This document shows positions 2,824-45,596 of a DNA stretch of 45,596 nt, piece after piece. This stretch comes from a virus (taxonomy: Duplodnaviria > Heunggongvirae > Uroviricota > Caudoviricetes). The notes beneath the pieces were generated by a model. The model did no database searches. It was not told the DNA's origin and was given only the letters and a program-made list of their open reading frames with translations. The stretch covers positions 1 to 45,596 of the IMG/VR virus record IMGVR_UViG_2778261121_000003; one strand, 5' to 3'. The position numbers were made by a program, and so were the translations under genes. Each line of letters begins with the position of its first letter. The first letter of the stretch is position 1.

Positions 2824-3504
2824 ATGGATGTAAAAATCACGATTTTGCAGGTTGATGTTGCCAACCTTCGCCCGAATACCTGGAACACCAATTCGGTTGG
2901 TGCGCAGAATTTTGAAAAACTGAAAGGTTCTATCGAAAAATTGGGCTTTTTTAAGCCAATTTTGGCTCGTGAACTTGAAGATGGATTTTTTGAAATCCTC
3001 GGCGGCGAACATCGCTGGCGTGCTGCTATTGAGCAAGGAATTTCAACGGTTCCGGTGCTTTCTGTGGGCAAAATTAGCGATGTCGTAGCTAAACAGATGT
3101 CACTGGTGGACAACGAGCGATACGGTGAAGACGACCAAATCGCATTGCAACGCTTCATTGAAGAAATTCAGTCAGAACTTGACTATCAACTGTCTGAAAT
3201 CGCCCCGTATGACGACGAAATCTCGATGGTTTTAGCAAAAGAGGCGGCAATCGACCTTGAAGCACTGGAGGCGTTGTCTCGTGGTAGTGATGAGCCTGTC
3301 GATACCGACAAACGAGAGAAAACCGAACGTGTGGGGGCGGAACATCAGACCATGCGCTTCAAAGTAACTTTCGATGCGTCAGATCGTGTTGCAGAAACCA
3401 TAAAAAACATCATCAAAGAGCAGGCTATTAACACCGGTAATGAAATGGAGAACGCTGGTGAGGCTCTGGTGTGGCTGGTCGACTACTACAAGGAGCGTAT
3501 GTAA
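2824..3504 (+). CDS. ParB N-terminal domain (ParB/Srx-like) protein, paralog 1
   Basis: 226 aa; ParB-box-like GGEHRWRAAIEQG followed by a hydrophobic stretch, typical of the ParB/sulfiredoxin N-domain. Confidence 0.8.
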   Translation: MDVKITILQVDVANLRPNTWNTNSVGAQNFEKLKGSIEKLGFFKPILARELEDGFFEILGGEHRWRAAIEQGISTVPVLSVGKISDVVAKQMSLVDNERYGEDDQIALQRFIEEIQSELDYQLSEIAPYDDEISMVLAKEAAIDLEALEALSRGSDEPVDTDKREKTERVGAEHQTMRFKVTFDASDRVAETIKNIIKEQAINTGNEMENAGEALVWLVDYYKERM

Positions 3505-4172
3505 TGACCAAAAAGTTTGAAATCGTATATCGCGACCCGGCAGATCTTATTCCCTATGAGATGAATGCCAAAAAGCATGATGAACAGCAGATCCGAGATC
3601 TGGCCGCAGCCATTAAAAAGCGCGGATTTGACCAGCCAATTACGGTCGATAAGAACGACGTAATTATTACTGGCCACGGCCGCCGTGAGGCTGCAATTTT
3701 TGCTGGACTTGAGCGCGTACCGGTTATTGTTCGCGATGATCTCAGTGATGACGAGGTTCGTGCGAAGCGCCTTGAAGATAACCGACTTGCCAGCATTGAT
3801 TACGATGCAATTAAGCTACAGAAAGAGCTTGAGTCGCTTGTTCTGGACGATATCGAGGTTTTCGGCTTTGAAGAGCGTGAGTTGAATGTTCTCGTTGGCA
3901 GTATGACAGAAGAAATGGACACCGACTCGCTAGTTATCGATCTTGGCGAAGAAACTAAACGACAGAAGGATGAACACACCGAGATCAGTCGTGAAGTTGC
4001 AGCGGAAGAAGTACGTGTTGTCGACGTATTGGGCTTTAAAACGCTCCCTGCTGGCTCTGCCATTGTTGTTGGTGATTTGCTTGCCCATATGGAAGAAATG
4101 ACGGGAGAAAGCGGGGTAGACGCATTTGTGGCATATGCGGAGAAGATCTCTTCCGGGGAGATGGCTGCATGA
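3504..4172 (+). CDS. ParB N-terminal domain (ParB/Srx-like) protein, paralog 2
   Basis: Start ATG at 3504 overlaps the upstream stop (TAATG) with AGGAG SD at 3491-3495; ParB-box-like ITGHGRREAAIFAG. Confidence 0.8.
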   Translation: MTKKFEIVYRDPADLIPYEMNAKKHDEQQIRDLAAAIKKRGFDQPITVDKNDVIITGHGRREAAIFAGLERVPVIVRDDLSDDEVRAKRLEDNRLASIDYDAIKLQKELESLVLDDIEVFGFEERELNVLVGSMTEEMDTDSLVIDLGEETKRQKDEHTEISREVAAEEVRVVDVLGFKTLPAGSAIVVGDLLAHMEEMTGESGVDAFVAYAEKISSGEMAA

Positions 4173-4834
4173 GCAAATACATCATCAACGTATCGTTTCA
4201 GACACGCGTAAATAAAACCACGCGCACGTTGGAAATCGCTGAGTCGTTTGGGCTTGGCCTGGACGAAAAAGAGTGGACGCTTTACGACAATCTGGAGCTG
4301 GAAGTGAAGCAGGGCGATGTGGTGTACATCACCGGCCAATCCGGTTCCGGCAAATCCGTTGTGCTGCGCGAGTTACAACGACAGATGAAGGATGAAGGGC
4401 TGTCTGTAGCCTCCATCGATGATTTTACCTTCGATAATGAGGTTAACGTCATCGATCAGTTGGGCAAAACGACCAGCGATGCGCTTGGGTTGTTATCTAT
4501 GGCTGGTCTGAACGATGCATATCTGTTTGTTCGCAAGCCTTCTGAAATGTCAGACGGTCAGAAATATCGTCTCAAGATTGCCAAACTGATTGAGTCAGGC
4601 GCTAAAGTGTGGGCTGCTGACGAGTTCGGTGCTGTTCTCGACCGTGTAACCGCTCAGGTTGTGGCATCTAATCTCCAGCGTGCCGCTCGAAAGGTTGGTG
4701 CGACGGTAATGGTGGCGACGACTCACGAAGACCTGAAGAACGCGCTGCGCCCGGATATGCAGATCACCAAGCACTACAAAGAACGCGTGAAGGTGGAATA
4801 TCACAATGGTAGTCATGATGAGGTCTATTCATGA
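4169..4834 (+). CDS. minimal ABC-type ATPase (nucleotide-binding domain only)
   Basis: 221 aa; Walker A GQSGSGKS, ABC-signature-like SDGQKYR, Walker B/D-loop VWAADEFGAVLD, H-loop-like ATTHE; start overlaps the upstream stop (ATGA). Confidence 0.75.
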   Translation: MSKYIINVSFQTRVNKTTRTLEIAESFGLGLDEKEWTLYDNLELEVKQGDVVYITGQSGSGKSVVLRELQRQMKDEGLSVASIDDFTFDNEVNVIDQLGKTTSDALGLLSMAGLNDAYLFVRKPSEMSDGQKYRLKIAKLIESGAKVWAADEFGAVLDRVTAQVVASNLQRAARKVGATVMVATTHEDLKNALRPDMQITKHYKERVKVEYHNGSHDEVYS

Positions 4835-5721
4835 CGGACATCATCATTAAACGCTACCGCCCTGAAGAGTTTCCGCGTCATCTGGACTTTCTGGAGCGAA
4901 TGACTGTTACAAAGGGAACTGTAGAGGACTGGCACGCTCTTAAGTCGCTTCACTACAAAACAGACGGCAAACCTTTCGCGCCAACTTACTATCGCTGCGA
5001 ACTTGATGACCGTCTGGTGGGCGTCGTGGTTATGGCTTACCCGAAACTACTGTTGGCACCTCGCCACCGCATGTTTCCTAAGTTGAAACCAACCACTAAT
5101 ACCACCGTGGCTAACCAGTACTGGGGTCGGTACGTGAATAACAACTTTGCGGTGATTAGTCGCTCAGTTGTGGATACTCAGTATCGTGGCGTAGGCGTCT
5201 CTTATCGAATGATTAACCTGGTTAGCAGGATGCATGACCGGCCAATCATTGAGATCCAGTCCTCGATGAGCAAATACAATCCCTTCGCCATGAAAGCAGG
5301 GTTTAAGTTCATCCGCCCTGAGCGACCGAAGAGCTATGAAAGTGCACTGCGTGTTTTCCAGCGTCATTTTCGTTCCGACCCGGGTGATAACGAGGCGATC
5401 GTCAAAGAGTTGTTCGCAATGAGCGAGTCACGTCGTCGCCGTGCACTGCGTGATCTGGTGGCGGACTACCACAAGAACAGTTCCCTGGCAAAAGCTGGGC
5501 GGAATCGCGGCACGACGATTCAGGACATTGCCGACAGTCTGGTGGACGAGGCCAGTATTGTGAAGCTGCTCAAGGACATTCACAACCTGAGCTTTACGTC
5601 TCCGTTGTATGGTGTGTATCGAAACCCTGACTTTGGTCGTCGACTGCCTGACACGCTGCCACTGCTGGCATTCGACAAACAACCTTTGGATAAACCGTTA
5701 GAAATTGCTTTACCGGCATAA
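4831..5721 (+). CDS. hypothetical protein with probable GNAT-fold acyltransferase domain
   Basis: 296 aa; GNAT motif-A-like VDTQYRGVGVSYRMINLV after a hydrophobic beta-strand; long C-terminal extension; start overlaps the upstream stop (ATGA). Confidence 0.6.
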   Translation: MTDIIIKRYRPEEFPRHLDFLERMTVTKGTVEDWHALKSLHYKTDGKPFAPTYYRCELDDRLVGVVVMAYPKLLLAPRHRMFPKLKPTTNTTVANQYWGRYVNNNFAVISRSVVDTQYRGVGVSYRMINLVSRMHDRPIIEIQSSMSKYNPFAMKAGFKFIRPERPKSYESALRVFQRHFRSDPGDNEAIVKELFAMSESRRRRALRDLVADYHKNSSLAKAGRNRGTTIQDIADSLVDEASIVKLLKDIHNLSFTSPLYGVYRNPDFGRRLPDTLPLLAFDKQPLDKPLEIALPA

Positions 5722-5997: not shown

Positions 5998-6021
5998 TCG
6001 GTCTGGGACGTTATTTAAAGA

Positions 6022-6076
6022 CCTGCTTCTGTATATATAAATAATAAGTAACTTATTAAATATATACGGAAGCAGG
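6022..6076. repeat. 55-bp AT-core palindrome, copy 1
   Basis: CCTGCTTCTGTATATATAAATAATAAGTAACTTATTAAATATATACGGAAGCAGG; near-perfect dyad symmetry; a near-identical copy lies at 36151-36205; flanked by outer inverted GGTCTGGG/CCCAGACC. Confidence 0.8.
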
Positions 6077-6193
6077 CTTAGTAAGACATGCCCAGACCTA
6101 ATTAGACACACCAGAAAACAAGTTGGTTAGCAGATGCAGTAAACAAGTTGTTTTAGAGCGCATGGACGCGCTCTGTGTGTTTTAGAGGGATCT

Positions 6194-6826
6194 ATGACTG
6201 TCGAAAAAGACGAGGTAAAAACTCGCCTGACACCAGCGGAGTGGGCCGAAGCTGAAGCCAAATGGACGTCAGGCGAATATACACTCTCAAAGCTGGAGGA
6301 AGAGTACGGCATTCGTCGTGAAACACTCTCCAGACATTTCAAAAAGCGAGGATTAGAGAAAGGCGCGGACTCTGTTGGGAAGATGGTTCGTGAGTCTCTT
6401 AAATCTGACGCAGAGCTTCGCGCTAAAGCCCGTGCGGAAAAGATAGAAGAACGTCGTACACGTTATGACGGCTGGGCGTATGCGTTGGGGCAGATGGTGA
6501 TGGTCGAAGTCACTACGGCCAAACGTGAGGGTAAGCCTTTAGGGGCGATTGAGGGTTCTCTCAAGAGCTTACAGAGAGCCAGTAATACCCTTGCAAAATG
6601 CTTTGAAGTTTCGTCCAAAGCATTGGGCATGGATCATGCGGAAAATGACGAGGAAGAAATTCCTAACCTGGTATTTGGTGAGCTTACGCCTTCCCAGGTG
6701 GCGAAATTACGTCAGGAAGACGACGAGCCTGAAATCATCGATGACGAATTGCTTGAGACGTTGGAAGAAGAAGCTCTAAGCGAATTTGATGCGACAGATG
6801 ATGGAAGTGAAGGGGAGGACGAATAA
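6194..6826 (+). CDS. putative terminase small subunit
   Basis: 210 aa; HTH-like N-terminus and acidic C-terminus; sits directly upstream of and abutting the large terminase gene; SD GAGGGA. Confidence 0.55.
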   Translation: MTVEKDEVKTRLTPAEWAEAEAKWTSGEYTLSKLEEEYGIRRETLSRHFKKRGLEKGADSVGKMVRESLKSDAELRAKARAEKIEERRTRYDGWAYALGQMVMVEVTTAKREGKPLGAIEGSLKSLQRASNTLAKCFEVSSKALGMDHAENDEEEIPNLVFGELTPSQVAKLRQEDDEPEIIDDELLETLEEEALSEFDATDDGSEGEDE

Positions 6827-16618: not shown

Positions 16619-19600
16619 ATGTCACAAAACGTAGAGTTTATCCTGTCGCTGGAAGACAAACAGTTTACAGCGTCAATCGATCGTGCGGGGAAACTGCTTA
16701 CTCGATTTGGTGAGCAGGTAACAAAGCCTGCTCAAAAAATCCAAACCTTTGAACGCTCTTTGGGTTCGGTCGCCCGTATCATTGGCGTTCTGGAAAGCAA
16801 GCTCGATTCTACGGCAGATAAACTACAGGATGTAGCTGCCGGTTTTGAGCTTGCTTCAGATGCTACGCGTAAAATGCGTGGCAACATCACCAGCCTCAAT
16901 TCTGGTCTTAAAGTCCTGATTGAGCGCGTCGATACGACAACTTCTTCAGTAGATAAACTCACCGCGTCATTACGTAAAGTGCAATCAGAGCTAAATGATT
17001 TCTCTGATTGGGCGACCTATGCAAGCAAAAGCGCAAGCCGCTTTGGAACGGAGGTCAAAGAAGCCTCTGCGTCCGTGAGTGGCATGAATACGCGCCTTAA
17101 TACCACGACGAAGCGACTCAGTAATTGGGGTGTCACAACGAGTCAGGCTGCCGAGGGACTGAAAAAGGTTCGTGAGCAGATGGACGAAGTTATCGGACGT
17201 CAGCAACTGATTAGCAAGCCGGTACGCGTTCGTACATCTGTAAGTGGCGATGGTGGTAGCGGGCGGCGTAGCGGCGCTTCTGGCCACAGCGGTAAAAATA
17301 ACGAAGGAGGTATGTTCTCTGGCCTTCGTGGCAACATTTTCCTGCTTGGCGAGATCGGAGATGCAGCCAGAACGGTTACTGACATCATGTTTGGGTGGCA
17401 GAAGCCTATTGTTGAAGCTGCGGCCGAAATGGAACGTATGCGGGTGATGCTTCGAGGGTTGAATAAGGAGAAGTCCAACCCTGGACAGGCTGCCGCCGAT
17501 GATATGAAGTACATCGTGGATATGGCTAAGAGCGCCCCATTTGCGATGGAAGCTCTAACCGATTCGTTCGTTAAATTCCGCTCAGCAGGATTAGATCCAA
17601 CAGATGGCTCTTTAAAGACTCTTGTCGATTCCGTTGCTCGTTTTGGTGGGGATAGCGAACTTCTGAAGCGTGCATCCATTGCTGTTCAGCAGATGTCTGG
17701 TAAGGGTGTTGTATCGATGGAAGAGCTTCGCCAGCAATTAGGTGAGGCGATTCCGACAGCAATGAACGCAATGGCCAAGGCTGCTGGTCTGACAATGGGC
17801 GAGTTAACTAAAGCTGTAGCATCTGGAACGGTAGAAGCCAAAAACGCACTGGCACTTATGTTCAAAGAGTTGAAGATGCAGAACGAGGGGGCTGCGTCCG
17901 AAATGATGAACACTTTTACCGGTACGTTGGCGCAGATGCAGACGGCCTTTACGCTATTTGCGGATAAAGTTGGCCAAGCTGGTTATTTGTCCTCTTTAAA
18001 AGAGGGGATGAAAGAACTTACCTCTTTGATGAATAGCACAGATGGTATGTCTTTTGCTCACTCATTGGGAAGTGGATTGACAACGGCTGTGGATGGCTTG
18101 CGTGATTTGGCAATGTGGCTGATTAAAAATCAAGAACTGGTCATTGCCTTCGGCAAGGTAGTAGCTGCTATGGTGGCCTTTAAGCTACTTAAGGCTGGTA
18201 TTTCTGGAGTTATAGGAACTGCCAGTCAGATGACGTCTGCTTTTGCGAATATGTCTACCACTATACAAGGGACATTTAATCTCGCTTCCACAGCCGTTAA
18301 ACGATTTAATCGGGCAGCGAGCATGGGGCTATCACCTATACCATCTTTAATCTTCGCTATTCGTAATGCGTTCAGTGGATTGGTTGCGTTCATGGCCGCA
18401 AATCCGATAGGTTTTGCTTTTACCGCAGCAGTAACAGCAGTGTCATCGCTGATTTTTTACATGCAGGTACTCAGAGGAAAAATTGAGGATGTCGTAAATA
18501 AAGTCAGAGAGATACCTGAAGCAATGACGGCGGCAGATCGCGCGATGCTGGAGTCTGCAAAGCGAGAGAAAGATCGTCAGATCAGCAAGCTAGAGAAGGA
18601 GGTAACAACAGGTAAACGATCACAGGTTTCAAGAGATGGGCTGGTTTATGAAACAGATGTTGACGTTAACAGCACCAAACAACAACTTGAAAACCTAAAG
18701 AAAGAACGCGATGACATAGCTAAAACACTTGGCGAAGGCATTGAGAAGAGCGTCTATAAAAGCGTCACCAAAGGTTTAGACGATGCAATTGCCGAAGTAA
18801 ACCAGAAGGCAAACGTCTCTTTGGTTGCAAATGCTAAGGAGTTGGAGCAGCTTAACAAGAAGAATGAGGAGATTGCCGGCAGAACTGACCTATCTGATCA
18901 CGAGAAGAGTCAATTAAGAGCCGCGAATAACGCAAAAATCGAGCGTTTATATTCTGAGGCGGATCTTCAAAAACTCAAAGGTTATCAGGATATTCAGAAG
19001 GGTATTCTTAATGATCTTGTTAACTTAAATGAGGATTTTAAAAAGGCTACAACGGCAAATAATACTGAACAGCTCAAAGAAATTCAGGCTCGGATTGATG
19101 CTCAGATAGCTAACAAGAAATCGATAGAAGAGCAGATCGAAAATGTTACGACCAGCCTTAGTGTGAAAGCTGGTAGCGGTCTTAAGTCAATTAATGGCGG
19201 TAAAATTGGTGAGTTTTCAAGCACACCAGTTGATGCTAATTCCAAAACTATGACTGGTTTTTGGAAACAGCAGATGGACTCTAAAAGGTATCAAAGAGTC
19301 AATCTAGATGGTTCCGCATTATACGACTTACAAGGTCAACCTGTTGTTGGGCCTCGACAACTCAAGGAGCAATTAAGACAGAAGAAAATTTACGGTGATG
19401 TGAAATTAGAGCAGTTGTCAGAAAATGACCGCATCGCAGTAATTAAGACTCTGACAAAAGCTCGTGAACTTGATGCTGAAGCAGCGGATAAGGCAGCAAA
19501 CCGTACCGCAAAAGCAGCCGAGAGAGCAGCAAAGAAAGAACAGGCAGCGCAACAGAAACTGGCAGCCGGATACCAGAAGGCTCTGGACAAAGCCGATCAG

Positions 19601-21184
19601 CTTATGGGGCAAATGGGTGAAAGCTCTAAGGCTACGGTATCGTTTGATCAGTCTCTTCGCGATACAACGAAATCGCTAACTGATTTGGCTAATGCGGTTC
19701 CTAACGAGTTCATCACTCAAGAGATGATCGACAAGGCGAAAAAACGTCTTGAAGACCTCAAAAATGCGACACCTGAATATCGCGAGATGTTTAATCGCCG
19801 CAATGTTGAGCAGATGATCTCCACTTGGGCACCGGAGGCGGATTCCATTATTAGTGCTGGCTATACGCCGTCTCGTGAAGAGAAAGTTGCTGATTTCGAA
19901 GACACCTACAACCGCAATCTCAAAGCGTTGATAGAACTTCGTGATAAGGCGTCTGATCCTAAAGTCGTGGCGCTTTATACAAAGAAAATCAATCAACTGA
20001 TTGCTGCTGGCAATACCGCGCTTATTAAAGAGACGGGGACCGCGACGCAGAAGTTGGCACTGGAATACGAAAACCTGGCAGAGCAGATCGAAAGCACCTG
20101 GACTGATTTGTTTAGTGGCTTAACTGATGTCCTGACTGATTTCGTTATTAACGGGAAGATGAGTTTCTCCAGCCTATCTCAGTCCATTTTGAAAGATATC
20201 ACCAATATGGTCGTGAAGTCGCAGATCACGCTGCCTCTAATGAACATGTTGGGGATGGGAACCACCGCAGCTGGTAGTTCACAGAGTGGTAATTTGCTGA
20301 CCGGGGTTGCTTCCGCCGTTGCCAATCAAGGGGTACGAATGGGCAACACTGTTAACGGCGACAAGTCGGTAGGAGAAGCCACGAAGGAGACGTCCAGTTC
20401 GGTAACTGGATTGGGGCAAACAACACAGCAGACCACCAGCGCAATTGGCACAGCAACAAATGCGATTGGTAGCTGGGTATCGGGGCTATTTGATAGCACC
20501 GAAGCCAAAGATGCTGAGACAAAAGCAGTGAAGGATTCCATCTTCTCGATGCAGAACCTCAGCTCTGTTACCGGTGCTCTGTCTGCCGCGTTTGCAATGC
20601 TTGGAGCTAATGCTTCCGGCTCTGGTAATAAGTGGTTGAATTTCGGCGCGACAGTTGCATCTGGGTTGGTTTCAGTATGGGCAGGTGGTGGTTTCGACAG
20701 TGTGACATCAAGCTCTGCTAAAACCGCAACCAGCAGTGTGACATCAAGTTCTGCTAAAACCGCAACTAGCAGTGTGGCTGACGGAACTAAAGGCATTCCT
20801 GCAATCCCGAAGTTTGCAAATGGAGGAATATTCGGAAAAGACGGCGTGATCCCGCTCCGGGCATACCAGAAAGGCGGTATCGCCAACTCACCTCAATTGG
20901 CGTTGTTTGGGGAAGGCGATATGAATGAGGCGTATGTTCCATTGCCTGATGGTCGAACAATCCCTGTAACGCTCAGTACCGATGGTATGAGTGGAGGCGG
21001 AAATGTTCTTTCTCCTGTATCAATTGAGATCAATGTCCATAGTGACGGTAGCACAACTGAATCCGGCGATACAGAAAGCATATGGAACAATGCCGCTCAA
21101 CGGGTGAAAGCCGTCGTACTTGAGACTATCGCTCAAGAAAAACGCCCTGGCGGATCACTCAACCCAAACACTCAACGTAACTAA
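16619..21184 (+). CDS. tail tape measure protein
   Basis: About 1520 aa, long alpha-helical/coiled-coil composition with Gly/Ser-rich C-terminal region; canonical position after G/GT; start could instead be the TTG at 16598. Confidence 0.9.
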   Translation: MSQNVEFILSLEDKQFTASIDRAGKLLTRFGEQVTKPAQKIQTFERSLGSVARIIGVLESKLDSTADKLQDVAAGFELASDATRKMRGNITSLNSGLKVLIERVDTTTSSVDKLTASLRKVQSELNDFSDWATYASKSASRFGTEVKEASASVSGMNTRLNTTTKRLSNWGVTTSQAAEGLKKVREQMDEVIGRQQLISKPVRVRTSVSGDGGSGRRSGASGHSGKNNEGGMFSGLRGNIFLLGEIGDAARTVTDIMFGWQKPIVEAAAEMERMRVMLRGLNKEKSNPGQAAADDMKYIVDMAKSAPFAMEALTDSFVKFRSAGLDPTDGSLKTLVDSVARFGGDSELLKRASIAVQQMSGKGVVSMEELRQQLGEAIPTAMNAMAKAAGLTMGELTKAVASGTVEAKNALALMFKELKMQNEGAASEMMNTFTGTLAQMQTAFTLFADKVGQAGYLSSLKEGMKELTSLMNSTDGMSFAHSLGSGLTTAVDGLRDLAMWLIKNQELVIAFGKVVAAMVAFKLLKAGISGVIGTASQMTSAFANMSTTIQGTFNLASTAVKRFNRAASMGLSPIPSLIFAIRNAFSGLVAFMAANPIGFAFTAAVTAVSSLIFYMQVLRGKIEDVVNKVREIPEAMTAADRAMLESAKREKDRQISKLEKEVTTGKRSQVSRDGLVYETDVDVNSTKQQLENLKKERDDIAKTLGEGIEKSVYKSVTKGLDDAIAEVNQKANVSLVANAKELEQLNKKNEEIAGRTDLSDHEKSQLRAANNAKIERLYSEADLQKLKGYQDIQKGILNDLVNLNEDFKKATTANNTEQLKEIQARIDAQIANKKSIEEQIENVTTSLSVKAGSGLKSINGGKIGEFSSTPVDANSKTMTGFWKQQMDSKRYQRVNLDGSALYDLQGQPVVGPRQLKEQLRQKKIYGDVKLEQLSENDRIAVIKTLTKARELDAEAADKAANRTAKAAERAAKKEQAAQQKLAAGYQKALDKADQLMGQMGESSKATVSFDQSLRDTTKSLTDLANAVPNEFITQEMIDKAKKRLEDLKNATPEYREMFNRRNVEQMISTWAPEADSIISAGYTPSREEKVADFEDTYNRNLKALIELRDKASDPKVVALYTKKINQLIAAGNTALIKETGTATQKLALEYENLAEQIESTWTDLFSGLTDVLTDFVINGKMSFSSLSQSILKDITNMVVKSQITLPLMNMLGMGTTAAGSSQSGNLLTGVASAVANQGVRMGNTVNGDKSVGEATKETSSSVTGLGQTTQQTTSAIGTATNAIGSWVSGLFDSTEAKDAETKAVKDSIFSMQNLSSVTGALSAAFAMLGANASGSGNKWLNFGATVASGLVSVWAGGGFDSVTSSSAKTATSSVTSSSAKTATSSVADGTKGIPAIPKFANGGIFGKDGVIPLRAYQKGGIANSPQLALFGEGDMNEAYVPLPDGRTIPVTLSTDGMSGGGNVLSPVSIEINVHSDGSTTESGDTESIWNNAAQRVKAVVLETIAQEKRPGGSLNPNTQRN

Positions 21185-28552: not shown

Positions 28553-31500
28553 ATGTGGTACAGGGAAGGTACTATCACATTTACACAGGGTAGTAATACT
28601 CTAGTTGGGGTTGGGACAGCCTGGAACGTAACAGCTAATGGTGTGTTGCCGGGAATGATCGTCATTGGTCCCGACAATAAGCTGTATGAGATCAAGCGTG
28701 TAACCAGTGATACGAATATTGTTCTCTCAGAACCTTATACCGGCGAAACTCAGTCTGAAGTTCCGTGCCGAATCATTACGACCTATGAAGGCGACTTAAC
28801 ACAGTTTAGCGCGCGCTTTACTGCGCTAATGTCGCGTATGTCGGCTGATTCCAAGTCCATGCGCAGTTGGTTGACTGCGCTGGATGAGGTGACAATCGAG
28901 CGTGAAGACGGTACAGAAGTGACCGTTAAGCCGCTGATGCAGATCGTCAACGAGCACAACGAAAACGTTGAGTGGTATAAAAATAACACCGACGCGATTG
29001 ACGCTGCTGGCGACAAAGCTCGTGAGGCGGCGGCCAGTGCTGCCGCAGCAGCAGAAAGCGCCAATACCGCTGGAGAAAAAGCATCTCAAGCGTCTCAAAG
29101 TGCACAGGCTGCAGCTTCGTCACAAAGTGCCGCTAGCGCGAGTGAGTCTGCTTCAAGGGTATCTGAAACGAACGCAGAATTAGCAAAAGAAGCAGCTGCA
29201 CAATCGGAGGCTATCGCATCATCAGCAGCTGCTGCGGCTAATGAAAAAGCTATAGAGGCCACAAATCAGGCAACAACTGCGAAAAATTATGCATTAGAAG
29301 CAAAGTCATCTGAATTAAATGCAAAGGCTTCAGAAGACAATGCGGCTTCCTCTATGGCCGCAGCTGCTGAATCTGCAAGTTCTGCGTCTTCATCAGAGAG
29401 TTCTGCTTCTGCTTCAAAAGATGAGGCTGCACGTCAAGCATCTGAGGCTGCTGGAAGTGCTGTGATAGCGTCAACAAAGGCAACAGAGGCGGAAGGCAGT
29501 GCTACGGCTGCATCTCAGAGCAAAACTGCTGCTGAATCCGCTGCGATACGTGCAGAAGCTGCCGCTGATCGTGCTGAGGAGATTGCCGGTGCAGTTGCGA
29601 TGGAAGACGCAAGTCTTACAACTAAAGGTGTTGTGAAACTTAGTAGTGCTGTCGACAGCACCAGTGAATCGCTGGCCGCAACGCCAAAAGCAGTTAAAGC
29701 AGCCAATGACAATGCAAATAGCAGGTTGGCGAAAAATCAGAACGGTGCAGATATCCAGGATAAATCAGCTTTTCTGGACAATGTTGGCGTCACCAGCCTG
29801 ACGTTTATGAAAAACAACGGAGAAATGCCGGTTGATGCTGACCTGAATGCTTTTGGCCCCGTTGAGGCTTATCTTGGCGTCTGGTCTAAAGCAACATCCA
29901 CCAACGCAACACTGGAGAAAAATTTCCCGGAAGATAATGCTGTCGGTGTGCTTGAGGTTTTTGCAGCTGGCAATTTTGCAGGTACGCAACGCTTCACCAC
30001 GAGAGACGGCAATGTATACATACGCAGACTCGCCAATAAGTGGAATGGCTCTGATGGTCCGTGGGGCATATGGCGTCACACTCAATCAGCTACCCGCCCT
30101 TTGAGTACGGCTATAGACCTGAATACGCTTGGAGCCGCCGAACATCTTGGTTTATGGCGTAACAGTAGCTCGGCTATAGCTTCATATGAACGCAATTATC
30201 CAGAGGAAGGCGGCTTTGCTCAGGGGATGCTTGAGATCCTCGAAGGCGGAAATTATGGAAGAACGCAACGTTATACCACTCGCCGTGGAAATATGTATGT
30301 CCGCTGCCTTGCGGCAAGCTGGGATGCATCAAATCCGCAGTGGGAACCGTGGTTAAGAGTCGGTCATCAGTCAGAGAGCCGTTATTACGAAGGTGATTTG
30401 AATGTTCTAACCGACCCTGGTATTTACAGTGTGACGGGTAAAGCGAGCAATGGTCCATTGCTGGATTCATCCGGTGCAACACTACTAGGGGTGTTAGAGG
30501 TTATCAGACGTTTTGATTACGTTGCCGTATTGCAACGCTATACCACAACAGGGACAGGAACGACAACGAAAGGTCGCTCATATGAACGAGTCTATACCGC
30601 CAGCTCATGGAGCGAATGGCGGGAAGTCTACACCTCGTATTCACTTCCCCTGAATCTGGGTATCGGTGGCGCAGCAGCAAAACTCACCAGTCTGGACTGG
30701 CAGACCTACGACTTTGTGCCGGGCAGTCTGATAACCGTTCGGCTGGATAACATGACCAATATTCCCGACGGTATGGACTGGGGGGTCATTGATGGCAACC
30801 TGATAAACATCGCTGTTGGCCCAAGTGATGATACCGGTACGGGACGCTCAATGCATGTATGGCGCAGCACTGTAAGTAAAGCCAACTACCGCTTTTTTAT
30901 GGTGCGTATTTCAGGAAATCCGGGAAGCCGCACGATCACAGCAAGACGTGTGCCAATTATCGACGAAGCCCAAACCTGGAGTGCTCACCAGACATTCAGC
31001 GGTGGTCTTGGCGGAGAGCTGTCCGGCAATGCTGCTACAGCTACTAAATTGCAGACAGCAAGAACCATCGGTGGTGTAAGCTTCGATGGCACTGCTAATA
31101 TTAATTTGCCTGGTGTTAATGCTGCCGGTAATCAGAACACTACCGGTAACGCGGCCACAGCGACCAAGTTGCAAACTGCTAGAACTATTAACGGGGTGTC
31201 GTTTAACGGCTCTGCGAATATTTCAATACCAACAATTACGTCCAGAGGACGCGTTACTGCGCTCACCGGTACAACACAAGGTGCTGCGACTGGATTGCAG
31301 ATGTACGAGGCATATAACAATGGTTATCCTTCTGATTACGGAAATGTACTTCACTTAAAAGGGGCAACGGCCGTTGGTGAAGGCGAGTTGTTCATTGGCT
31401 GGAGTGGTACAAGTGGCGCTCATGCACCTGTACATGTACGTTCGCGACGAGATACTGATACGGCTAGTTGGTCAGAGTGGGCGCAAGTTTATACGTCCAA

Positions 31501-33975: not shown

Positions 33976-34497
33976 TTATTCTTCGAACAATTTTTCGATA
34001 GATTTTGTAGGATAGAACAAAGAACGCTCGTTGTTACCAACCAGCTGGATAAAGCCTAAACTTTTATAAAACGCCTTGGCTTTGTCATTTAACGCCTCAA
34101 CGAAAAGTCCATGAATGCCTACAGCAAGAGATGCATTGTACACAACGCGCATTGCATGTGTTACAAGCATTGAGCCAAATCCTTGACCTTGAAGGGACTT
34201 GTCCAAAGCCAGCCTACCCAAAGTAACACTTGGAACATTCCGATAAGGAACCTTCTTTTGTTTGCTTCTTGAAGGTAAGGACTCCTTTTCAAAGCAGCTG
34301 CCTGACAAAGTGTAATACCCTAACACTTTGGGTCTGTCTTCTTTAGTGCAAAGCACATAAGCGCGAAGAATTTTTCCCTCATGCTGCCTTTTTAAGTGGT
34401 TGGTTAAAAAGGCATTTAGTGATTCTTCACCGCAATCAAAACCATTCAAATCATAATCTTTCTCTCCAGAGAAAATTTCTATCTTTATATTATCCAC
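33976..34497 (-). CDS. GNAT-family acetyltransferase toxin (TacT/AtaT/KacT-like)
   Basis: 173 aa; GNAT motif LQGQGFGSMLV; size and sequence character typical of GNAT toxins paired with DUF1778 antitoxins; GTG start 7 nt after the antitoxin stop, with GGAG SD. Confidence 0.8.
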   Translation of the reverse strand: MDNIKIEIFSGEKDYDLNGFDCGEESLNAFLTNHLKRQHEGKILRAYVLCTKEDRPKVLGYYTLSGSCFEKESLPSRSKQKKVPYRNVPSVTLGRLALDKSLQGQGFGSMLVTHAMRVVYNASLAVGIHGLFVEALNDKAKAFYKSLGFIQLVGNNERSLFYPTKSIEKLFEE

Positions 34498-34504
34498 GAG
34501 TAAA

Positions 34505-34774
34505 CTACTCCATGCTTTTCAGACGATCAGCAGCTCGTTTCAGCTTGTCGTTCGGTGCCGGAGGATTGCTTATAGCGTCCATAACCAGATTCCAGGATTC
34601 TTCATTCAGAACTAGTCTACGGTGTTGCTCTATAACTTTCACGGCACGTTCAGATGCACTGCTAACCATAAACTGAGTAATGCTCTGGTTAGACATTGCG
34701 GCAGCTTCCTCGATGATGCTTTTATCGTCATCGGTTAATCTCAAATCGATGCGCTGCTTTTTTAGTGCTGACAT
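34505..34774 (-). CDS. DUF1778-type (RHH) antitoxin (TacA/AtaR-like)
   Basis: 89 aa from ATG 34774 (AGGAGG SD); RIDLRLTDDDKSIIEEAAAMSNQSITQFMV...NPPAPNDKLKRA matches the DUF1778 antitoxin pattern; directly upstream of the GNAT toxin. Confidence 0.8.
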   Translation of the reverse strand: MSALKKQRIDLRLTDDDKSIIEEAAAMSNQSITQFMVSSASERAVKVIEQHRRLVLNEESWNLVMDAISNPPAPNDKLKRAADRLKSME

Positions 34775-34894
34775 GTATTCCTCCTGATGGCCGTGATGTA
34801 GGAAGGCCATCAATCTCCTCTGTTCAAACTGAGTTTTCGACTCAAAAATTACTTTAAAAGGCTATAGCCCATTACGTGTGCATTATCAAATTGT

Positions 34895-34913: not shown

Positions 34914-35092
34914 TTGTAATATAGAGGTCATTGTTACTTTTTTCAACAGACAAATACAAGCTATGATTGCCAATTGTTAATCACAACCTACCATTTAACC
35001 TTTACACCGCAGCCGTAGGCATTTAGGCTATATCACATATAAGAAAACAAGTTGTTTCAGACGATAATTATATACGCAAAGGGAACTCTCCA

Positions 35093-35761
35093 ATGACCAA
35101 GATCTTTGTGGTTGGCGGCACAAAGGGCGGGCCTGGCAAATCCACCGTTGCCCAGCAAATTGCCGTTTGCCTGAAAGTCAAAAAGAAGAAGAAGGTTTAT
35201 ATTACCGATATAGATATTCAGCGCACGACAACGAGCTGGTGTGAAGACCGTCGACAGAACGAAGACCTTGAGCTGATTCCTTTTGCATACGTTCAGGATG
35301 ACATCATTAAGCACCTAAAATCGCTTCAGGGTAGAGCTGAGTATGTAGTGGTAGATGCTGGTGGCTTTGACTCCGAAATTCAGCGACAAGCGATGCTGAT
35401 GGCCGACGTTATCATTATCCCGCTGCGTCCTAAGCGTCGTGATTTGAAATCTCTGCGTGACATCGATCCTATTATCGACAATGTTCGCAATGTAAACGAT
35501 AAAGTGAAGGTACGCGCGGTCATGAACCAGTGCCCGGCTTTGCCATCACAAGTATCTCGCATTCTGGCGGCTAAAGAGATTGTCGAGACGTTTGGCATCG
35601 AGTCTGCGCCTGTCAATCTATATAACCGCAACGTCTACGATGATGCGGAAGAGTCTGGTCGTTCTATCTTTGAAATGACCGGTAGCGAGCGCGACAAAAA
35701 GGCGGAAGCCGAGTTTGAAGAATTTGTAGATTATCTGTTGAGTCTGGAGGAAGAAGAATAA
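35093..35761 (+). CDS. ParA/MinD-family partition ATPase (type Ib, ParF-like size)
   Basis: 222 aa; deviant Walker A VVGGTKGGPGKST. Confidence 0.85.
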   Translation: MTKIFVVGGTKGGPGKSTVAQQIAVCLKVKKKKKVYITDIDIQRTTTSWCEDRRQNEDLELIPFAYVQDDIIKHLKSLQGRAEYVVVDAGGFDSEIQRQAMLMADVIIIPLRPKRRDLKSLRDIDPIIDNVRNVNDKVKVRAVMNQCPALPSQVSRILAAKEIVETFGIESAPVNLYNRNVYDDAEESGRSIFEMTGSERDKKAEAEFEEFVDYLLSLEEEE

Positions 35762-36120
35762 TGTCCATGAAAATGGGTGACCTAGCAAAGCGCAAAGAGC
35801 CTGATGCACCGGCTAAGAACACAACTCCTTTGCGCCAACCAGTCAGACCGCAGGGACGCCCGACTCGTGGCAAAGAGAAAATTAAAAGCCGCACAATGTC
35901 ACTGGAGGACGAATACTTCGAACTGCTTGAGATGATGAAGTTCATCCCTCGCTTCGAGAAGTTCACCCGTTCTGACGTGATTCGCGCAGCCATTTTCCAT
36001 CTGGCAGAGAAGTCACCGCAGGAAATCGAGGACATCGTGAAACTTAACGAGGCGATCACAGCTGCCGACGTTACGATGCGTACCGATGAAATCAAGCGAG
36101 AACTCATGAAAAAAGGCTGA
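35761..36120 (+). CDS. putative ParG-like RHH centromere-binding partner
   Basis: 119 aa; basic disordered N-terminus then a short strand-helix-helix-like C-terminal region; translationally coupled to the ParA gene (ATGTCCATGA overlap). Confidence 0.5.
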   Translation: MSMKMGDLAKRKEPDAPAKNTTPLRQPVRPQGRPTRGKEKIKSRTMSLEDEYFELLEMMKFIPRFEKFTRSDVIRAAIFHLAEKSPQEIEDIVKLNEAITAADVTMRTDEIKRELMKKG

Positions 36121-36150
36121 CAACTACCGGTCTGGCAGCTTCAATCAGAA

Positions 36151-36205
36151 CCTGTTTCTGTATATAAATAATAAGTAACTTATTAAATATATATACGGAA
36201 GCAGG
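36151..36205. repeat. 55-bp AT-core palindrome, copy 2
   Basis: CCTGTTTCTGTATATAAATAATAAGTAACTTATTAAATATATATACGGAAGCAGG; near-identical to 6022-6076, with the TA-repeat count shifted between arms; 30 bp downstream of the ParA/RHH cassette. Confidence 0.8.
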
Positions 36206-36287
36206 TCTTTTAAAAGACACCCACCAGAACAACTCCCTTCCGTTTCCACTTCCAAAAACTGACACCAGTCGCTATCATCCGCTCATT

Positions 36288-44012: not shown

Positions 44013-44087
44013 GATGGTGTAGCTCAGCGGTAGAGCAGTTGGCTGTTAACCAACTGGTCGGTGGTTCGAATCCACCCACCATCGCCA
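44013..44087 (+). tRNA. tRNA-Asn (anticodon GTT)
   Basis: Manual cloverleaf: acceptor GATGGTG/CACCATC, anticodon stem GTTGG/CCAAC with loop CTGTTAA, T-arm GGTGG-TTCGAAT-CCACC, encoded CCA. Confidence 0.8.
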
Positions 44088-44092
44088 ATTTA

Positions 44093-44179
44093 GGGGAGTT
44101 AGTCCGTAGAGGTAGCGGTGTAGACTGTAAATCTACTGTCATGGCGACTCGGGTGGTTCGACTCCATCACTCCCCACCA
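44093..44179 (+). tRNA. tRNA-Tyr (anticodon GTA), long variable arm
   Basis: Manual cloverleaf: acceptor GGGGAGT/ACTCCCC, anticodon stem GTAGA/TCTAC with loop CTGTAAA, long variable arm, T-arm GGTGG-TTCGACT-CCATC, encoded CCA. Confidence 0.75.
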
Positions 44180-44183
44180 AATT

Positions 44184-44259
44184 GCCGGTTTAGCTCAGTT
44201 GGTAGAGCAGTCGCTTTGTAAGCGAATGGCCAGCGGTTCAAGTCCGTTAACCGGCACCA
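44184..44259 (+). tRNA. tRNA-Thr (anticodon TGT)
   Basis: Manual cloverleaf: acceptor GCCGGTT/AACCGGC, D-arm GCTC...GAGC, anticodon loop TTTGTAA, T-arm AGCGG-TTCAAGT-CCGTT, encoded CCA. Confidence 0.75.
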
Positions 44260-44751
44260 ACATAATATTGAGAACATTGGCGTAACGGGGTCATATCCCA
44301 ATCTATGAATAAATGTTGCGTTGCAGCGTGACAACCAGTGTTCTCAACATTGTGGTGAATGCACAGGCTGATGTGCCGCAACTACAGTAGTGCGCGCTTT
44401 GCGGGGCTTGCTACAACCCTGTGTCGGAGATCAGCACCGACCATCACAATTTGGCTCTCTTGCAACAGCATAACGCTGAAATATGTCCAACCTGGTGCGG
44501 CCTGTTCACCCGCCGTTAGCTCCACGAAACGGAGCGCACAACAGGAAAGAGCATTGAGAACCGCCGAGACTGCCCTGTTTGAAGCGTAAGTCCGTGCAAA
44601 CGTCATACAGTGCTCTTTTCGTTGTGGTTGATGCGCAGACTGATGCGCGGAAAGAAATGCCCCAGCGACACACGAGGCGAGTTCACACACTGCATTGCAG
44701 TCAGTAGCCGGGGTCGCTAAGCCGGAGTTCAGTACCGGTAACCACAACAAT

Positions 44752-44838
44752 TGGAGAGTAGGGAGCATGGTGCTCAAGCGGTCTTGAAAACCGTCCCATT
44801 GCGCAAGCGATGATGGTTCGATTCCATTACTCTCCGCC
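44752..44838 (+). tRNA. tRNA-Ser (anticodon TGA), long variable arm
   Basis: Manual cloverleaf: acceptor GGAGAGT/ACTCTCC, anticodon stem GCGGT/ACCGT with loop CTTGAAA, long variable arm, T-arm GATGG-TTCGATT-CCATT, encoded CCA. Confidence 0.75.
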
Positions 44839-44993
44839 AGACACAGCGTTGAGCGGTTTGGCCTTTTAATCACCCAGATTAAGACTCCGCTAACATAAAC
44901 CAGACCGCTCAACGCTGTGATAGACAATTACGTCAGACTTTCTTAACCATAGCTTGATAACATCCTAGCAACACTTTTTTCATCGCAAAATTC

Positions 44994-45016: not shown

Positions 45017-45031
45017 GTTGAATAGTGCAAT

Positions 45032-45553
45032 TTACTTTGCATAGTCGCTTAGTTTTAATATTTCGCGCTTATATTCCTTAACCATGTCACGAGACTCAAT
45101 GTGAATTCGATGTAAAATTTTATCGTTATCTTTATTCTCATTTATCTTAATGAGTGCTAATTTATATTCATAATCATCAAATGCATCAATCAATTTGCGA
45201 CCGGGAATTGTTTCTTCGTCACTCTTAAAGTATATATCTTCAAGCCTGTAATCTAGTTGATTAGATTTTCTTTTCTCGATGTAATCTACTGCCATAGCTA
45301 TTACATCGTTCCTGTCATTTAACCTGGTTTTTTCGGAAGGCACATCTTCGTAACGTTGTACAATTGAACAACCAATAAGGGATGGGATGTAAACATCAAA
45401 ACAAGTAACTCTATCATGCGCATTTTTAAGTTCTTTCTCAAAGTAGTTTCTAACATGCAAAGGCAACTTATCAAAGTAATCATCAATTATAGGAGAACAA
45501 GGAGTTTTATAATTCATAAGAATTGACGGTACGAGCTTTGGATGTCGGAACAT
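45032..45553 (-). CDS. hypothetical protein (AT-rich accessory gene)
   Basis: 173-aa ORF on the opposite strand to the surrounding genes, visibly AT-rich, AAGGAG upstream of the ATG; no recognisable motifs. Confidence 0.6.
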   Translation of the reverse strand: MFRHPKLVPSILMNYKTPCSPIIDDYFDKLPLHVRNYFEKELKNAHDRVTCFDVYIPSLIGCSIVQRYEDVPSEKTRLNDRNDVIAMAVDYIEKRKSNQLDYRLEDIYFKSDEETIPGRKLIDAFDDYEYKLALIKINENKDNDKILHRIHIESRDMVKEYKREILKLSDYAK

Positions 45554-45596
45554 CCACTCCTTTTGAACACCCGAGGGGAAATAATAACTACGAATG

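What the first reader, a model, noticed from the sequence alone, without database searches (positions are those of the whole stretch)
35093..36120. Plasmid-type ParA plus small RHH partner in a phage with no integrase in view: possible phage-plasmid lifestyle
A deviant Walker A ParA (KGGPGKST) with a co-translated 119-aa putative RHH partner, next to a TA addiction module and a candidate centromere palindrome, is the gene set expected for an extrachromosomal (plasmid) prophage. No integrase, excisionase or CI-like repressor is present in the 45.6 kb window. The window is incomplete, so a lysogeny module could lie outside it.
Basis: inference. Interest (0 to 1): 0.6.

Follow-up and report, generated by a model that had tools for sequence, protein, structure and literature searches.

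The report
Partition genes of a known phage-plasmid

Summary
Window 35093-35761 encodes a 222-aa ParA-type ATPase (KGGPGKST). Window 35761-36120 encodes a 119-aa partner whose start overlaps the ParA stop by one base (TAATG). A GNAT/TacA toxin-antitoxin pair lies upstream on the other strand.

The lifestyle inference is also right, but already established. The window is about 94-98% identical to E. coli plasmid pLF82, which is phage Cyrano, and about 83% identical to Salmonella phage SSU5. ParA and partner are 100% identical in protein to Cyrano's. Among 5,426 complete E. coli genomes, 264 carry this region: 488 places, all on plasmids, none on a chromosome. Cyrano has been measured at 5.5 copies per cell and is induced by ciprofloxacin.

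A tyrosine recombinase gene sits about 1.3 kb beyond the window end in relatives. It evidently does not integrate the element.

The partner belongs to a tiny family with no Pfam model. It follows a small ParA in nearly every relative examined. The ribbon-helix-helix fold is only weakly supported, and the "RelE/ParE toxin" label in Cyrano is unsupported.

The 57-bp palindrome is not a par-specific centromere. It recurs elsewhere and survives in pMT1, which lacks these genes. The centromere remains unidentified.

The parts
35093..35761 (+). parA: 222-aa small ParA/MinD-type ATPase. It has the deviant Walker A KGGPGKST and no N-terminal HTH domain, so it is type Ib-like.
   Evidence: (ParF of TP228, E 3e-10), and 19 (NCBIfam ParA_partition, 115 bits, below the curated cutoff of 180). 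The protein is 100% identical over the 218 aligned residues (98% of its length) to pLF82/Cyrano ParA.
35761..36120 (+). Partner gene: 119 aa, translationally coupled to parA. Putative centromere-binding protein. Residues 1-47 form a disordered basic tail with a conserved MGDLAKR motif and a QGRPTRGK motif. Four helices follow (48-59, 70-82, 86-97, 101-118).
   Evidence: The gene directly follows a small ParA in distant relatives. The protein is 100% identical to Cyrano CYRAN_29.
34986..35064 (+). Non-coding block just upstream of parA, nearly invariant across relatives. It contains a putative promoter (-35 TTTACA at 35001-35006, 17-nt spacer, -10 TAGGCT at 35024-35029) and the 13-bp palindrome AAACAAGTTGTTT at 35045-35057. 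It is the best remaining candidate for the par operator or centromere.
   Evidence: The block is nearly identical in the window, SSU5 and Klebsiella pJN2-26, although their par-locus DNA is only about 80% identical. The footprint persists in more distant loci. The promoter assignment comes from reading the alignment; the scanning tool did not call it.
34859..34872 (.). GGCTATAGCC palindrome in the divergent intergenic region. With AGGCTATA at 35025 it gives three GGCTAT hexamers in 279 bp. Weak candidate binding site.
   Evidence: One search counts 3 observed against 0.17 expected, but two of the three are one palindrome.
33976..34497 (-). GNAT acetyltransferase toxin (TacT/KacT type).
   Evidence: Annotated as KacT in Cyrano.
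34505..34813 (-). TacA/DUF1778 antitoxin.
   Evidence: PF08681, E 8.6e-26.
36150..36206 (.). 57-bp AT-rich palindrome with GC-clamped arms (ACCTGYTTCYGTATA...). It lies upstream of the 249-aa gene, helicase and primase module. It is not par-specific.
   Evidence: Folded as RNA it gives -26.3 kcal/mol, z -7.5. Relatives carry a cargo gene between the partner gene and this palindrome.
6021..6077 (.). Second copy of the same palindrome, upstream of the terS-like gene at 6194-6826.
   Evidence: This copy is kept in pMT1, which lacks this ParA and partner.

Best explanation
This is the active-partition cassette of an SSU5-type phage-plasmid of the E. coli Cyrano/pLF82 lineage.

During lysogeny the roughly 108-kb genome replicates as a low-copy circular plasmid. 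The RepA replicon lies outside the window. The small ParA ATPase and its 119-aa partner segregate the copies to the daughter cells.

The proposed mechanism, by analogy with type Ib systems such as ParF/ParG of TP228, is as follows.

1. The partner dimerises through its helical core, probably a ribbon-helix-helix.
2. It binds a cis site near the locus. The best candidate is the invariant block directly upstream of parA.
3. It represses the par promoter.
4. Its flexible basic N-terminal tail stimulates ATP hydrolysis by nucleoid-bound ParA, which moves the plasmids apart.

The adjacent GNAT/TacA pair adds post-segregational killing.

What is shown: gene identity, the conserved gene pairing, near-identity to a documented phage-plasmid, and exclusive plasmid location of relatives. 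What is inferred: the partner's fold, its DNA site and ATPase stimulation.
For: - ParA features and ParF similarity.
- One-base stop/start overlap between the two genes.
- The partner gene directly follows a 221-229-aa ParA/MipZ ATPase in all six relatives of 27-71% identity whose contigs were read. The exception is the borderline hit P0039 (23% identity).
- The window is collinear with pLF82/Cyrano, and ParA and partner are 100% identical in protein.
- 264 of 5,426 complete E. coli genomes carry the region, at 488 places, all on plasmids. It is in 737 PLSDB plasmids.
- pLF82 is circular, has a Rep3-type RepA, and has no other ParA-type ATPase found: of its other annotated 'AAA family ATPase' genes, the one labelled 'septum site-determining' is a kinase-like AAA_28 and another is AAA_5.
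- Cyrano has a copy number of 5.5 and is SOS-inducible. CYRAN_29, the partner, is transcribed 9-fold above prophage background in the lysogen (PMC9928086).
- RHH support: family member P0027 hits Pfam RHH_1 in register (E 0.005). P0039 passes the RHH_1 and RHH_8 thresholds. The window protein gives a weak hit to aCcr1, which I recall to be an RHH family (E 2e-4).
- The AlphaFold model has a disordered tail followed by helices at 48-59 and 70-82.
Against: - No partition experiment on this ParA/partner pair was found in the searchable literature.
- The partner has no Pfam or PDB match.
- hhalign against ParG and CopG is not significant.
- No classical array of short repeats, as expected for a type Ib centromere, was found upstream or downstream.
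- Most of the invariant upstream block can be explained as a promoter plus a 13-bp motif that also occurs before many unrelated genes.
- ParA scores below the NCBIfam ParA_partition cutoff (115 against 180 bits).
Confidence: 0.85

Rival explanations
1. The partner is a global regulator as well as, or instead of, a simple centromere binder, in the manner of KorB of RK2 or omega of pSM19035. It would bind the dispersed 13-bp palindromes AAACAANTTGTTT and/or the 57-bp palindromes. That would couple partition to control of replication, packaging and early genes.
For: - The 13-bp palindrome lies in the parA leader (35045). It also lies before terS (6116, 6141) and the helicase gene (37075): 4 sites against 0.34 expected.
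- pLF82 has 12 such sites, most of them about 12-41 nt upstream of annotated start codons.
- A related AAACA-N3-TGTTT sits before parA in a distant relative.
- The partner carries an AT-hook-like GRP motif next to the putative DNA-binding strand.
Against: - pMT1 has no homolog of the partner or the small ParA (tblastn), yet it keeps the palindrome and the 13-bp motif before terS.
- A 128-aa HTH regulator next to the integrase is conserved in pLF82 and matched by a 128-aa ORF in the same position in pMT1. It is a more economical candidate for binding a dispersed palindromic operator.
Confidence: 0.1
2. The 119-aa protein is a RelE/ParE-type toxin, as annotated for CYRAN_29 in the Cyrano record, and ParA is an unrelated neighbour.
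For: The product name in OV696614 and its listing among 'toxins' in PMC9928086.
Against: - No Pfam, NCBIfam or PDB match to RelE/ParE.
- The model is an unstructured tail followed by four helices, not a RelE-like alpha/beta fold.
- There is no adjacent antitoxin-sized gene.
- The gene is invariably coupled to ParA in relatives.
Confidence: 0.02
3. The element is really an integrating temperate phage, or a strictly lytic one, and the par genes act only during lytic growth, for example by positioning replication or packaging complexes.
For: - A tyrosine recombinase gene (PF00589) lies about 1.3 kb beyond the window end in relatives.
- SSU5 itself was isolated and used as a lytic biocontrol phage (reference list seen).
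- Klebsiella plasmid p2, described as similar to phage SSU5, could not be induced as a phage (PMC8969562).
Against: - 0 of 488 places in complete E. coli genomes are chromosomal.
- pLF82 is a circular 108-kb plasmid with RepA.
- Cyrano is maintained at 5.5 copies per cell, and the partner is expressed in the lysogen.
Confidence: 0.03

Closest known systems
Escherichia phage Cyrano (plasmid pLF82 of E. coli LF82; OV696614 / NC_011917) and Salmonella phage SSU5 (SSU5 supergroup of phage-plasmids)
   Same: - Collinear at 94-98% (Cyrano) and about 83% (SSU5) DNA identity.
- Same order of lysis genes, par, helicase, primase and ligase.
- ParA and partner are 100% identical in protein to Cyrano's.
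- Relatives are plasmids in every complete genome examined.
   Different: - The window lacks the variable cargo gene that relatives carry between the partner gene and the palindrome. The cargo is DUF2971, a GIY-YIG nuclease, a P-loop NTPase or an IS.
- The window's right end (about 45018-45596) diverges from pLF82.
- SSU5 and pJN2-26 lack the GNAT/TacA pair at this position.
Type Ib partition systems: ParF/ParG-parH of plasmid TP228, and the related delta/omega of pSM19035
   Same: - A small ParA without an N-terminal HTH. ParF is the best PDB match (E 3e-10).
- A small downstream partner with a flexible N-terminal tail and a compact C-terminal dimer-like domain.
- An autoregulated-operon layout.
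   Different: - The partner is 119 aa, against 76 aa for ParG (my recollection).
- It has two extra C-terminal helices.
- It shows no detectable homology to ParG.
- No array of short repeats like parH or the omega heptads was found.
P1 and P7 ParA/ParB-parS (type Ia), as also used by pMT1 of Yersinia pestis within the same supergroup
   Same: The same biological role: segregation of a low-copy plasmid prophage.
   Different: - A different class. P1-type ParA is about 400 aa with an HTH, ParB is a large ParB_N/HTH protein, and parS lies downstream.
- pMT1 has that system and lacks the window's genes.
KorB/IncC of RK2, with 12 dispersed 13-bp palindromic operators
   Same: A resemblance only: a 13-bp palindrome dispersed at about 12 promoter-proximal sites on the element.
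   Different: The partner is not a ParB-family protein. The motif also persists in pMT1 without the partner.

Membership tests
ParA/MinD superfamily, small (type Ib) plasmid-partition ATPase | Deviant Walker A, KGGxxK[ST], with the signature N-terminal lysine | tested here: met
   KGGPGKST at residues 11-18. Pfam AAA_31, MipZ, CbiA and ParA hits.
ParA/MinD superfamily, small (type Ib) plasmid-partition ATPase | About 200-230 aa with no N-terminal HTH domain, homologous to ParF-type proteins | tested here: met
   The protein is 222 aa. It aligns over 9-199 with ParF residues 8-189, E 3e-10.
ParA/MinD superfamily, small (type Ib) plasmid-partition ATPase | Reaches the curated NCBIfam ParA_partition equivalog score | tested here: not met
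   115.5 bits against a cutoff of 180. It is a relative, not an equivalog by that model.
ParA/MinD superfamily, small (type Ib) plasmid-partition ATPase | A small centromere-binding partner encoded directly downstream in the same operon | tested here: met
   TAATG overlap. The pairing is conserved in relatives of 27-71% identity.
ParA/MinD superfamily, small (type Ib) plasmid-partition ATPase | A cis-acting centromere made of repeated partner-binding sites next to the operon | tested here: inconclusive
   An invariant block lies upstream and there are three GGCTAT hexamers. No clear repeat array was found. The palindrome was shown not to be par-specific.
ParA/MinD superfamily, small (type Ib) plasmid-partition ATPase | Stabilises a low-copy replicon in vivo | not testable with these tools
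   Needs plasmid-loss assays.
Ribbon-helix-helix centromere-binding proteins (ParG, omega, CopG-like) | A beta-strand, helix, helix core recognisable by sequence profile | tested here: inconclusive
   The window protein has no Pfam hit. Relatives P0027 (RHH_1, E 0.005) and P0039 (RHH_1 and RHH_8 at threshold) hit in register. There is a weak aCcr1 hit, a family I recall to be RHH. hhalign against CopG gives E 0.02 at probability 2%.
Ribbon-helix-helix centromere-binding proteins (ParG, omega, CopG-like) | Homology to ParG itself | tested here: not met
   hhalign probability 0.2%.
Ribbon-helix-helix centromere-binding proteins (ParG, omega, CopG-like) | A flexible N-terminal tail preceding the DNA-binding core | tested here: met
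   The AlphaFold models show no secondary structure in residues 1-47, with mean pLDDT 38-62 per 10-residue block. The linker varies in length and the tip motif is conserved.
Ribbon-helix-helix centromere-binding proteins (ParG, omega, CopG-like) | An intertwined dimer with an antiparallel two-stranded sheet in the major groove | not testable with these tools
   Only monomer prediction was available. Fold searches with the monomer were uninformative.
SSU5-supergroup phage-plasmids | Shared gene repertoire and synteny with SSU5, pHCM2 or pSLy3-type elements | tested here: met
SSU5-supergroup phage-plasmids | Extrachromosomal maintenance in host genomes | tested here: met
   488 of 488 places are on plasmids in complete E. 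coli genomes. This holds for relatives; the window's own replicon state is unknown.
SSU5-supergroup phage-plasmids | A plasmid replication initiator on the same element | tested here: inconclusive
   RepA (Rep3_N/Rep3_C) is present in pLF82 at 31-1086, but it lies outside the window.
SSU5-supergroup phage-plasmids | Production of virions | not testable with these tools
   Reported for the near-identical Cyrano (PMC9928086).
RelE/ParE toxins (the annotation of the partner in Cyrano) | A RelE/ParE fold or profile match, with a cognate antitoxin gene | tested here: not met
   No profile or PDB match. The model is a tail followed by helices only.
TacAT/KacAT GNAT toxin-antitoxin | A GNAT acetyltransferase preceded by a DUF1778/TacA antitoxin in one operon | tested here: met
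   The two ORFs are 7 nt apart on the minus strand.

The most novel reading that the evidence does not exclude
The 119-aa partner may found an undescribed family of centromere-binding proteins confined to SSU5-like phage-plasmids. It would have an RHH-like core, an AT-hook-like GRP motif, and a conserved G-D/G-L-x-K tip that contacts ParA. It would not use a classical repeat-array centromere. Instead it would bind the dispersed 13-bp and/or 57-bp palindromes, linking plasmid segregation to silencing of replication and packaging operons in the way KorB or omega do.
Probability: 0.1. Interest if true: 0.5.

Novelty: already known. Interest (0 to 1): 0.12.

Why it matters
The phage-plasmid lifestyle of this lineage is textbook by now. 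SSU5 is one of the three standard examples, and Cyrano has been characterised experimentally, so the finding adds nothing to that question.

Three smaller points have residual value.

1. The partner gene is mislabelled as a toxin in the public Cyrano record and counted among 'toxins' in the paper. It is almost certainly the ParA adaptor.
2. I found no experimental study of this partition system, and its centromere is unknown, even though the element is in about 5% of complete E. coli genomes and in many Klebsiella, Salmonella and Enterobacter plasmids, some carrying resistance genes.
3. The dispersed palindromic motifs suggest a P1-like scattered operator network that could be tested.

Tried and rejected
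- Sequence searches of the partner against Pfam, NCBIfam and PDB, as a single sequence and as a profile, gave nothing significant.
- The 57-bp palindrome as centromere: rejected as par-specific. pLF82 has three copies, relatives have cargo genes between it and the partner gene, and pMT1 keeps it without these par genes.
- The 13-bp palindrome in the parA leader as a par-specific operator: rejected as par-specific for the same reason.
- A second ParA in the element, Cyrano's 'septum site-determining protein': it is a kinase-like AAA_28 ATPase unrelated to ParA.
- The two ParB_N-domain proteins at window 2824-4172 as the true ParB: considered unlikely. They sit in the packaging-proximal block next to an ABC ATPase, far from parA, and are conserved in pMT1, which uses another par system.
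- The integrase against PDB: no match. Its role could not be resolved.
- The sigma-70 scan did not call the promoter I infer from the alignment.

Full report
**1. Observation**

- Window 35093-35761 (+) encodes 222 aa starting MTKIFVVGGTKGGPGKSTVAQQ, which carries the deviant Walker A KGGPGKST.
- It matches Pfam AAA_31, MipZ, CbiA, ParA and VirC1.
- It matches PHROG 164 'ParA-like partition protein' at E 2e-51.
- It matches NCBIfam ParA_partition at 115 bits, below the equivalog cutoff of 180.
- Its best solved relative is ParF of plasmid TP228, E 3e-10 across nearly the full length.

The next ORF, 35761-36120 (+), encodes 119 aa. Its start shares one base with the ParA stop (TAATG) and follows a GGAGGA.

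Divergently upstream lie a GNAT toxin (33976-34497, minus strand) and a TacA/DUF1778 antitoxin (34505-34813, minus strand; E 9e-26). A 57-bp palindrome lies at 36150-36206.

Downstream are a 249-aa protein of unknown function, a DnaB-like helicase and a Toprim primase.

**2. What the window is**

The par region is 98% identical to Escherichia phage Cyrano and phage CMS-2020a, and 83% identical to Salmonella phage SSU5.

The whole window aligns collinearly with circular E. coli plasmid pLF82, which is Cyrano. The match runs from pLF82 67621 down to 22271, at 94-97.5% identity in the long blocks. ParA and partner are 100% identical in protein to pLF82's.

In the RefSeq complete E. coli genomes, 264 of 5,426 carry this region. 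All 488 places are on plasmids and none is chromosomal. PLSDB holds 737 matching plasmids from Klebsiella, Escherichia, Enterobacter, Salmonella and others, and 703 of them are non-mobilizable.

The literature already describes this lineage.

- SSU5 is named beside P1 and N15 as a standard phage-plasmid and gives its name to the largest supergroup (PMC7969092).
- Cyrano is called a phage-plasmid. It has 5.5 copies per cell, is induced 39-fold by ciprofloxacin, and releases virions (PMC9928086).
- SSU5 parA has been used as a screening marker for such elements (bioRxiv 10.1101/2025.09.12.675607).

**3. Integrase and repressor**

None is in the window. The matching pLF82 annotation shows none either.

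Immediately outside the window, relatives carry two genes:

- a 367-aa tyrosine recombinase (PF00589);
- a convergent 128-aa HTH protein, apparently the 'putative repressor' (CYRAN_45) listed for Cyrano.

They are in pLF82 at 19145-20629. In p009_B they lie about 1.3 kb past the point where the window ends. The recombinase and a 128-aa ORF in the same position are also kept in pMT1.

No chromosomal copy exists among 488 places. I therefore infer a multimer-resolution role, as Cre plays in P1. This is not shown.

pLF82 also carries a Rep3-type RepA (IncFIB typing) at 31-1086. I found no second ParA. The protein labelled 'septum site-determining' in Cyrano is a kinase-like AAA_28 ATPase.

**4. 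The partner protein**

The family is very small. It has 25 clusters among 5.8 billion proteins and 20 representatives among 1.84 billion.

I read contigs for six relatives with 27-71% identity to the window protein: P0010, P0014, P0031, P0034, P0036 and P0038. In all six the gene lies directly after a 221-229-aa ParA/MipZ-type ATPase, usually just past the lysis genes. Only the borderline hit P0039 is not next to a ParA. This conserved pairing is the strongest evidence that the protein is the ParA adaptor.

Alignments show four segments:

- a conserved tip, (K/x)MGDLAK(R/K);
- a linker of variable length;
- a conserved basic stretch, P-x-R-P-Q-G-R-P-T-R-G-K-x-x-I-K-S-R-T-M-S-(L/I)-E-D-E;
- an invariant R-S-D...R core.

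AlphaFold gives no secondary structure in residues 1-47, then helices at 48-59, 70-82, 86-97 and 101-118. Block-mean pLDDT is 78-93 over residues 51-100 in the second model.

The pattern K-S-R-T-M-S-L, then a helix, then F-T-R-S-D-V-I-R-A-A-I reads like a ribbon-helix-helix (my reading of the sequence). Statistical support is thin:

- RHH_1 hits in register in P0027 (E 0.005) and P0036 (E 0.11);
- RHH_1 and RHH_8 hits at threshold in P0039;
- a weak hit of the window protein to aCcr1, which I recall to be an RHH family;
- no hit for the window protein in Pfam or PDB;
- non-significant hhalign results against CopG and ParG;
- empty fold searches.

I put the RHH fold at roughly two in three.

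The 'RelE/ParE putative toxin' label in the Cyrano record has no support. In the LF82 transcriptome this gene is expressed 9-fold above the prophage background, which fits a maintenance function in the lysogen.

**5. The centromere question**

*The palindrome.* It has GC-clamped arms, ACCTGYTTCYGTATA, around an AT-rich centre. It is not tied to par, for four reasons.

- A second copy lies at window 6021-6077, before the terS-like gene.
- pLF82 has a third copy near 92.0 kb.
- Relatives have a variable cargo gene between the partner gene and the palindrome. The palindrome therefore travels with the downstream 249-aa gene and helicase module.
- pMT1 of Y. pestis has no homolog of the small ParA, the partner, the 249-aa protein or the helicase and uses a type Ia ParAB. 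It still keeps the palindrome before terS.

If transcribed, both window copies would fold into very stable hairpins (-26 and -31 kcal/mol, z about -7.5). They look like operon-boundary elements of the phage. I have not identified their function.

*The upstream region.* The 79 bp at 34986-35064 are nearly identical in the window, SSU5 and Klebsiella pJN2-26. The par-locus DNA of these genomes is only about 80% identical, and the sequence further upstream cannot be aligned.

Adding three more distant loci leaves a footprint. It reads as a -35 TTTACA, a 17-nt spacer, a -10 of the TAGGCT/TAGTAT type, and then ATAAGAAAACAnnTTGTTT.

The 13-bp palindrome AAACAAGTTGTTT (35045-35057) is again not par-specific.

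- It also occurs before terS (6116, 6141) and before the helicase gene (37075). That is 4 sites against 0.34 expected.
- It occurs 12 times in pLF82, mostly about 12-41 nt upstream of annotated start codons, and 3 times in pMT1.

It looks like a dispersed operator, comparable in layout to the scattered C1 operators of P1. The conserved 128-aa HTH protein is the obvious candidate binder (inference).

What remains par-specific is the promoter-proximal block and a few GGCTAT hexamers: 3 in 279 bp against 0.17 expected, two of them forming one palindrome. No classical array of short repeats was found. The centromere therefore remains unidentified. My best guess is that it lies upstream of parA.

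**6. Mechanism**

The most likely mechanism is a type Ib-like ParA and adaptor system that segregates the low-copy plasmid prophage. The adaptor would autoregulate the operon and stimulate ParA through its N-terminal tail. The GNAT/TacA pair would back this up by post-segregational killing.

- Shown: gene identities, coupling, conservation, and the plasmid state of relatives.
- Inferred: the adaptor's fold, its DNA site and ATPase stimulation.

Rival readings are listed with their probabilities in the rival-explanations section: global regulator, toxin, and integrating or purely lytic phage.

**7. Verdict**

The finding is already known, so interest is low. The useful by-products are a correction of a public annotation, the exclusion of the palindrome as a par-specific centromere, and two repeated cis motifs worth testing experimentally.

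Noticed in passing
window 36150-36206 and 6021-6077; pLF82 about 30508-30560, 61702-61756, 91960-92014; pMT1 28573-28627: A 57-bp AT-rich palindrome with conserved GC-clamped arms (ACCTGYTTCYGTATA) recurs at operon boundaries: before the 249-aa gene and helicase module, before terS, and after the dam methylase gene in pLF82. It is kept in pMT1. As RNA it folds at -26 to -31 kcal/mol. Its function is unknown; it could be a terminator, a processing site or a protein-binding site.
   Followed up: partly
window 6116, 6141, 35045, 37075; 12 sites in pLF82; 3 in pMT1: The 13-bp palindrome AAACAANTTGTTT, often preceded by AGA/AGT, lies mostly about 12-41 nt upstream of annotated start codons across the element. 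The window has 4 sites against 0.34 expected. This suggests a dispersed operator network like the C1 operators of P1.
   Followed up: partly
window 36121-36149, compared with pLF82 30570-31381: A cargo hotspot lies between the partner gene's stop codon and the palindrome. Relatives carry a DUF2971 protein, a LEM-3-like GIY-YIG nuclease, a P-loop NTPase, hypothetical genes or IS elements there. Every one of the 40 closest E. coli records listed shows an insertion at this point; the window has none.
   Followed up: partly
window 35761-36120 (Cyrano CYRAN_29): The public Cyrano record and paper call this protein a 'RelE/ParE putative toxin'. No profile, structure or context evidence supports that. 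It is the conserved partner of ParA.
   Followed up: yes
window 35850-35880 (partner residues about 30-40): An AT-hook-like motif (PQGRPTRGK; KKRGRPR in the distant member P0039) lies directly N-terminal to the putative DNA-binding strand. A conserved G-(D/G)-L-x-K tip at the extreme N-terminus may be the peptide that contacts ParA.
   Followed up: no
window 2824-3504, 3471-4172, 4169-4834, 4831-5721: Two consecutive ParB_N-domain proteins, an ABC-type ATPase and a 296-aa PHROG 'ABC transporter ATP-binding subunit' homolog lie upstream of the terminase genes. The block is conserved in pMT1. It is unrelated to the ParA cassette and its role is unknown.
   Followed up: partly
window 6150-6190: The terS leader has a GC-rich hairpin (AGAGCGC...GCGCTCT) followed by GTGTGTTTT and flanked by repeated GTTTTAGAG. 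It sits just after the two 13-bp motifs and looks like an attenuator or terminator in front of the packaging genes.
   Followed up: no
just beyond the window's right end; L013 13119-14603; pLF82 19145-20629; pMT1 87222-88706: A tyrosine recombinase (367 aa) is paired with a convergent 128-aa ORF, an HTH protein in the E. coli plasmids, across the supergroup including pMT1. Since all copies are plasmids, a dimer-resolution role is likely but untested.
   Followed up: partly
window 44013-44839: A tRNA cluster: Asn-GTT, Tyr-GTA, Thr-TGT and Ser-TGA. Cyrano annotates Asn, Thr and Ser in the corresponding region.
   Followed up: no
L010 and L011 3441-3900: In a distant relative (partner P0034) the equivalent palindrome arms (ACCTAGCTCTGTATAT) are split by about 200 bp. 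The insert contains iteron-like CAAAACCCAGAGT repeats and a GC hairpin, and it lies just before the 240-aa gene and the helicase gene. This may be an origin-like region.
   Followed up: no
L009 about 2015-2040: In another distant relative a LexA-box-like CTGT-N8-ACAG lies between a divergent S24-peptidase gene and parA.
   Followed up: no
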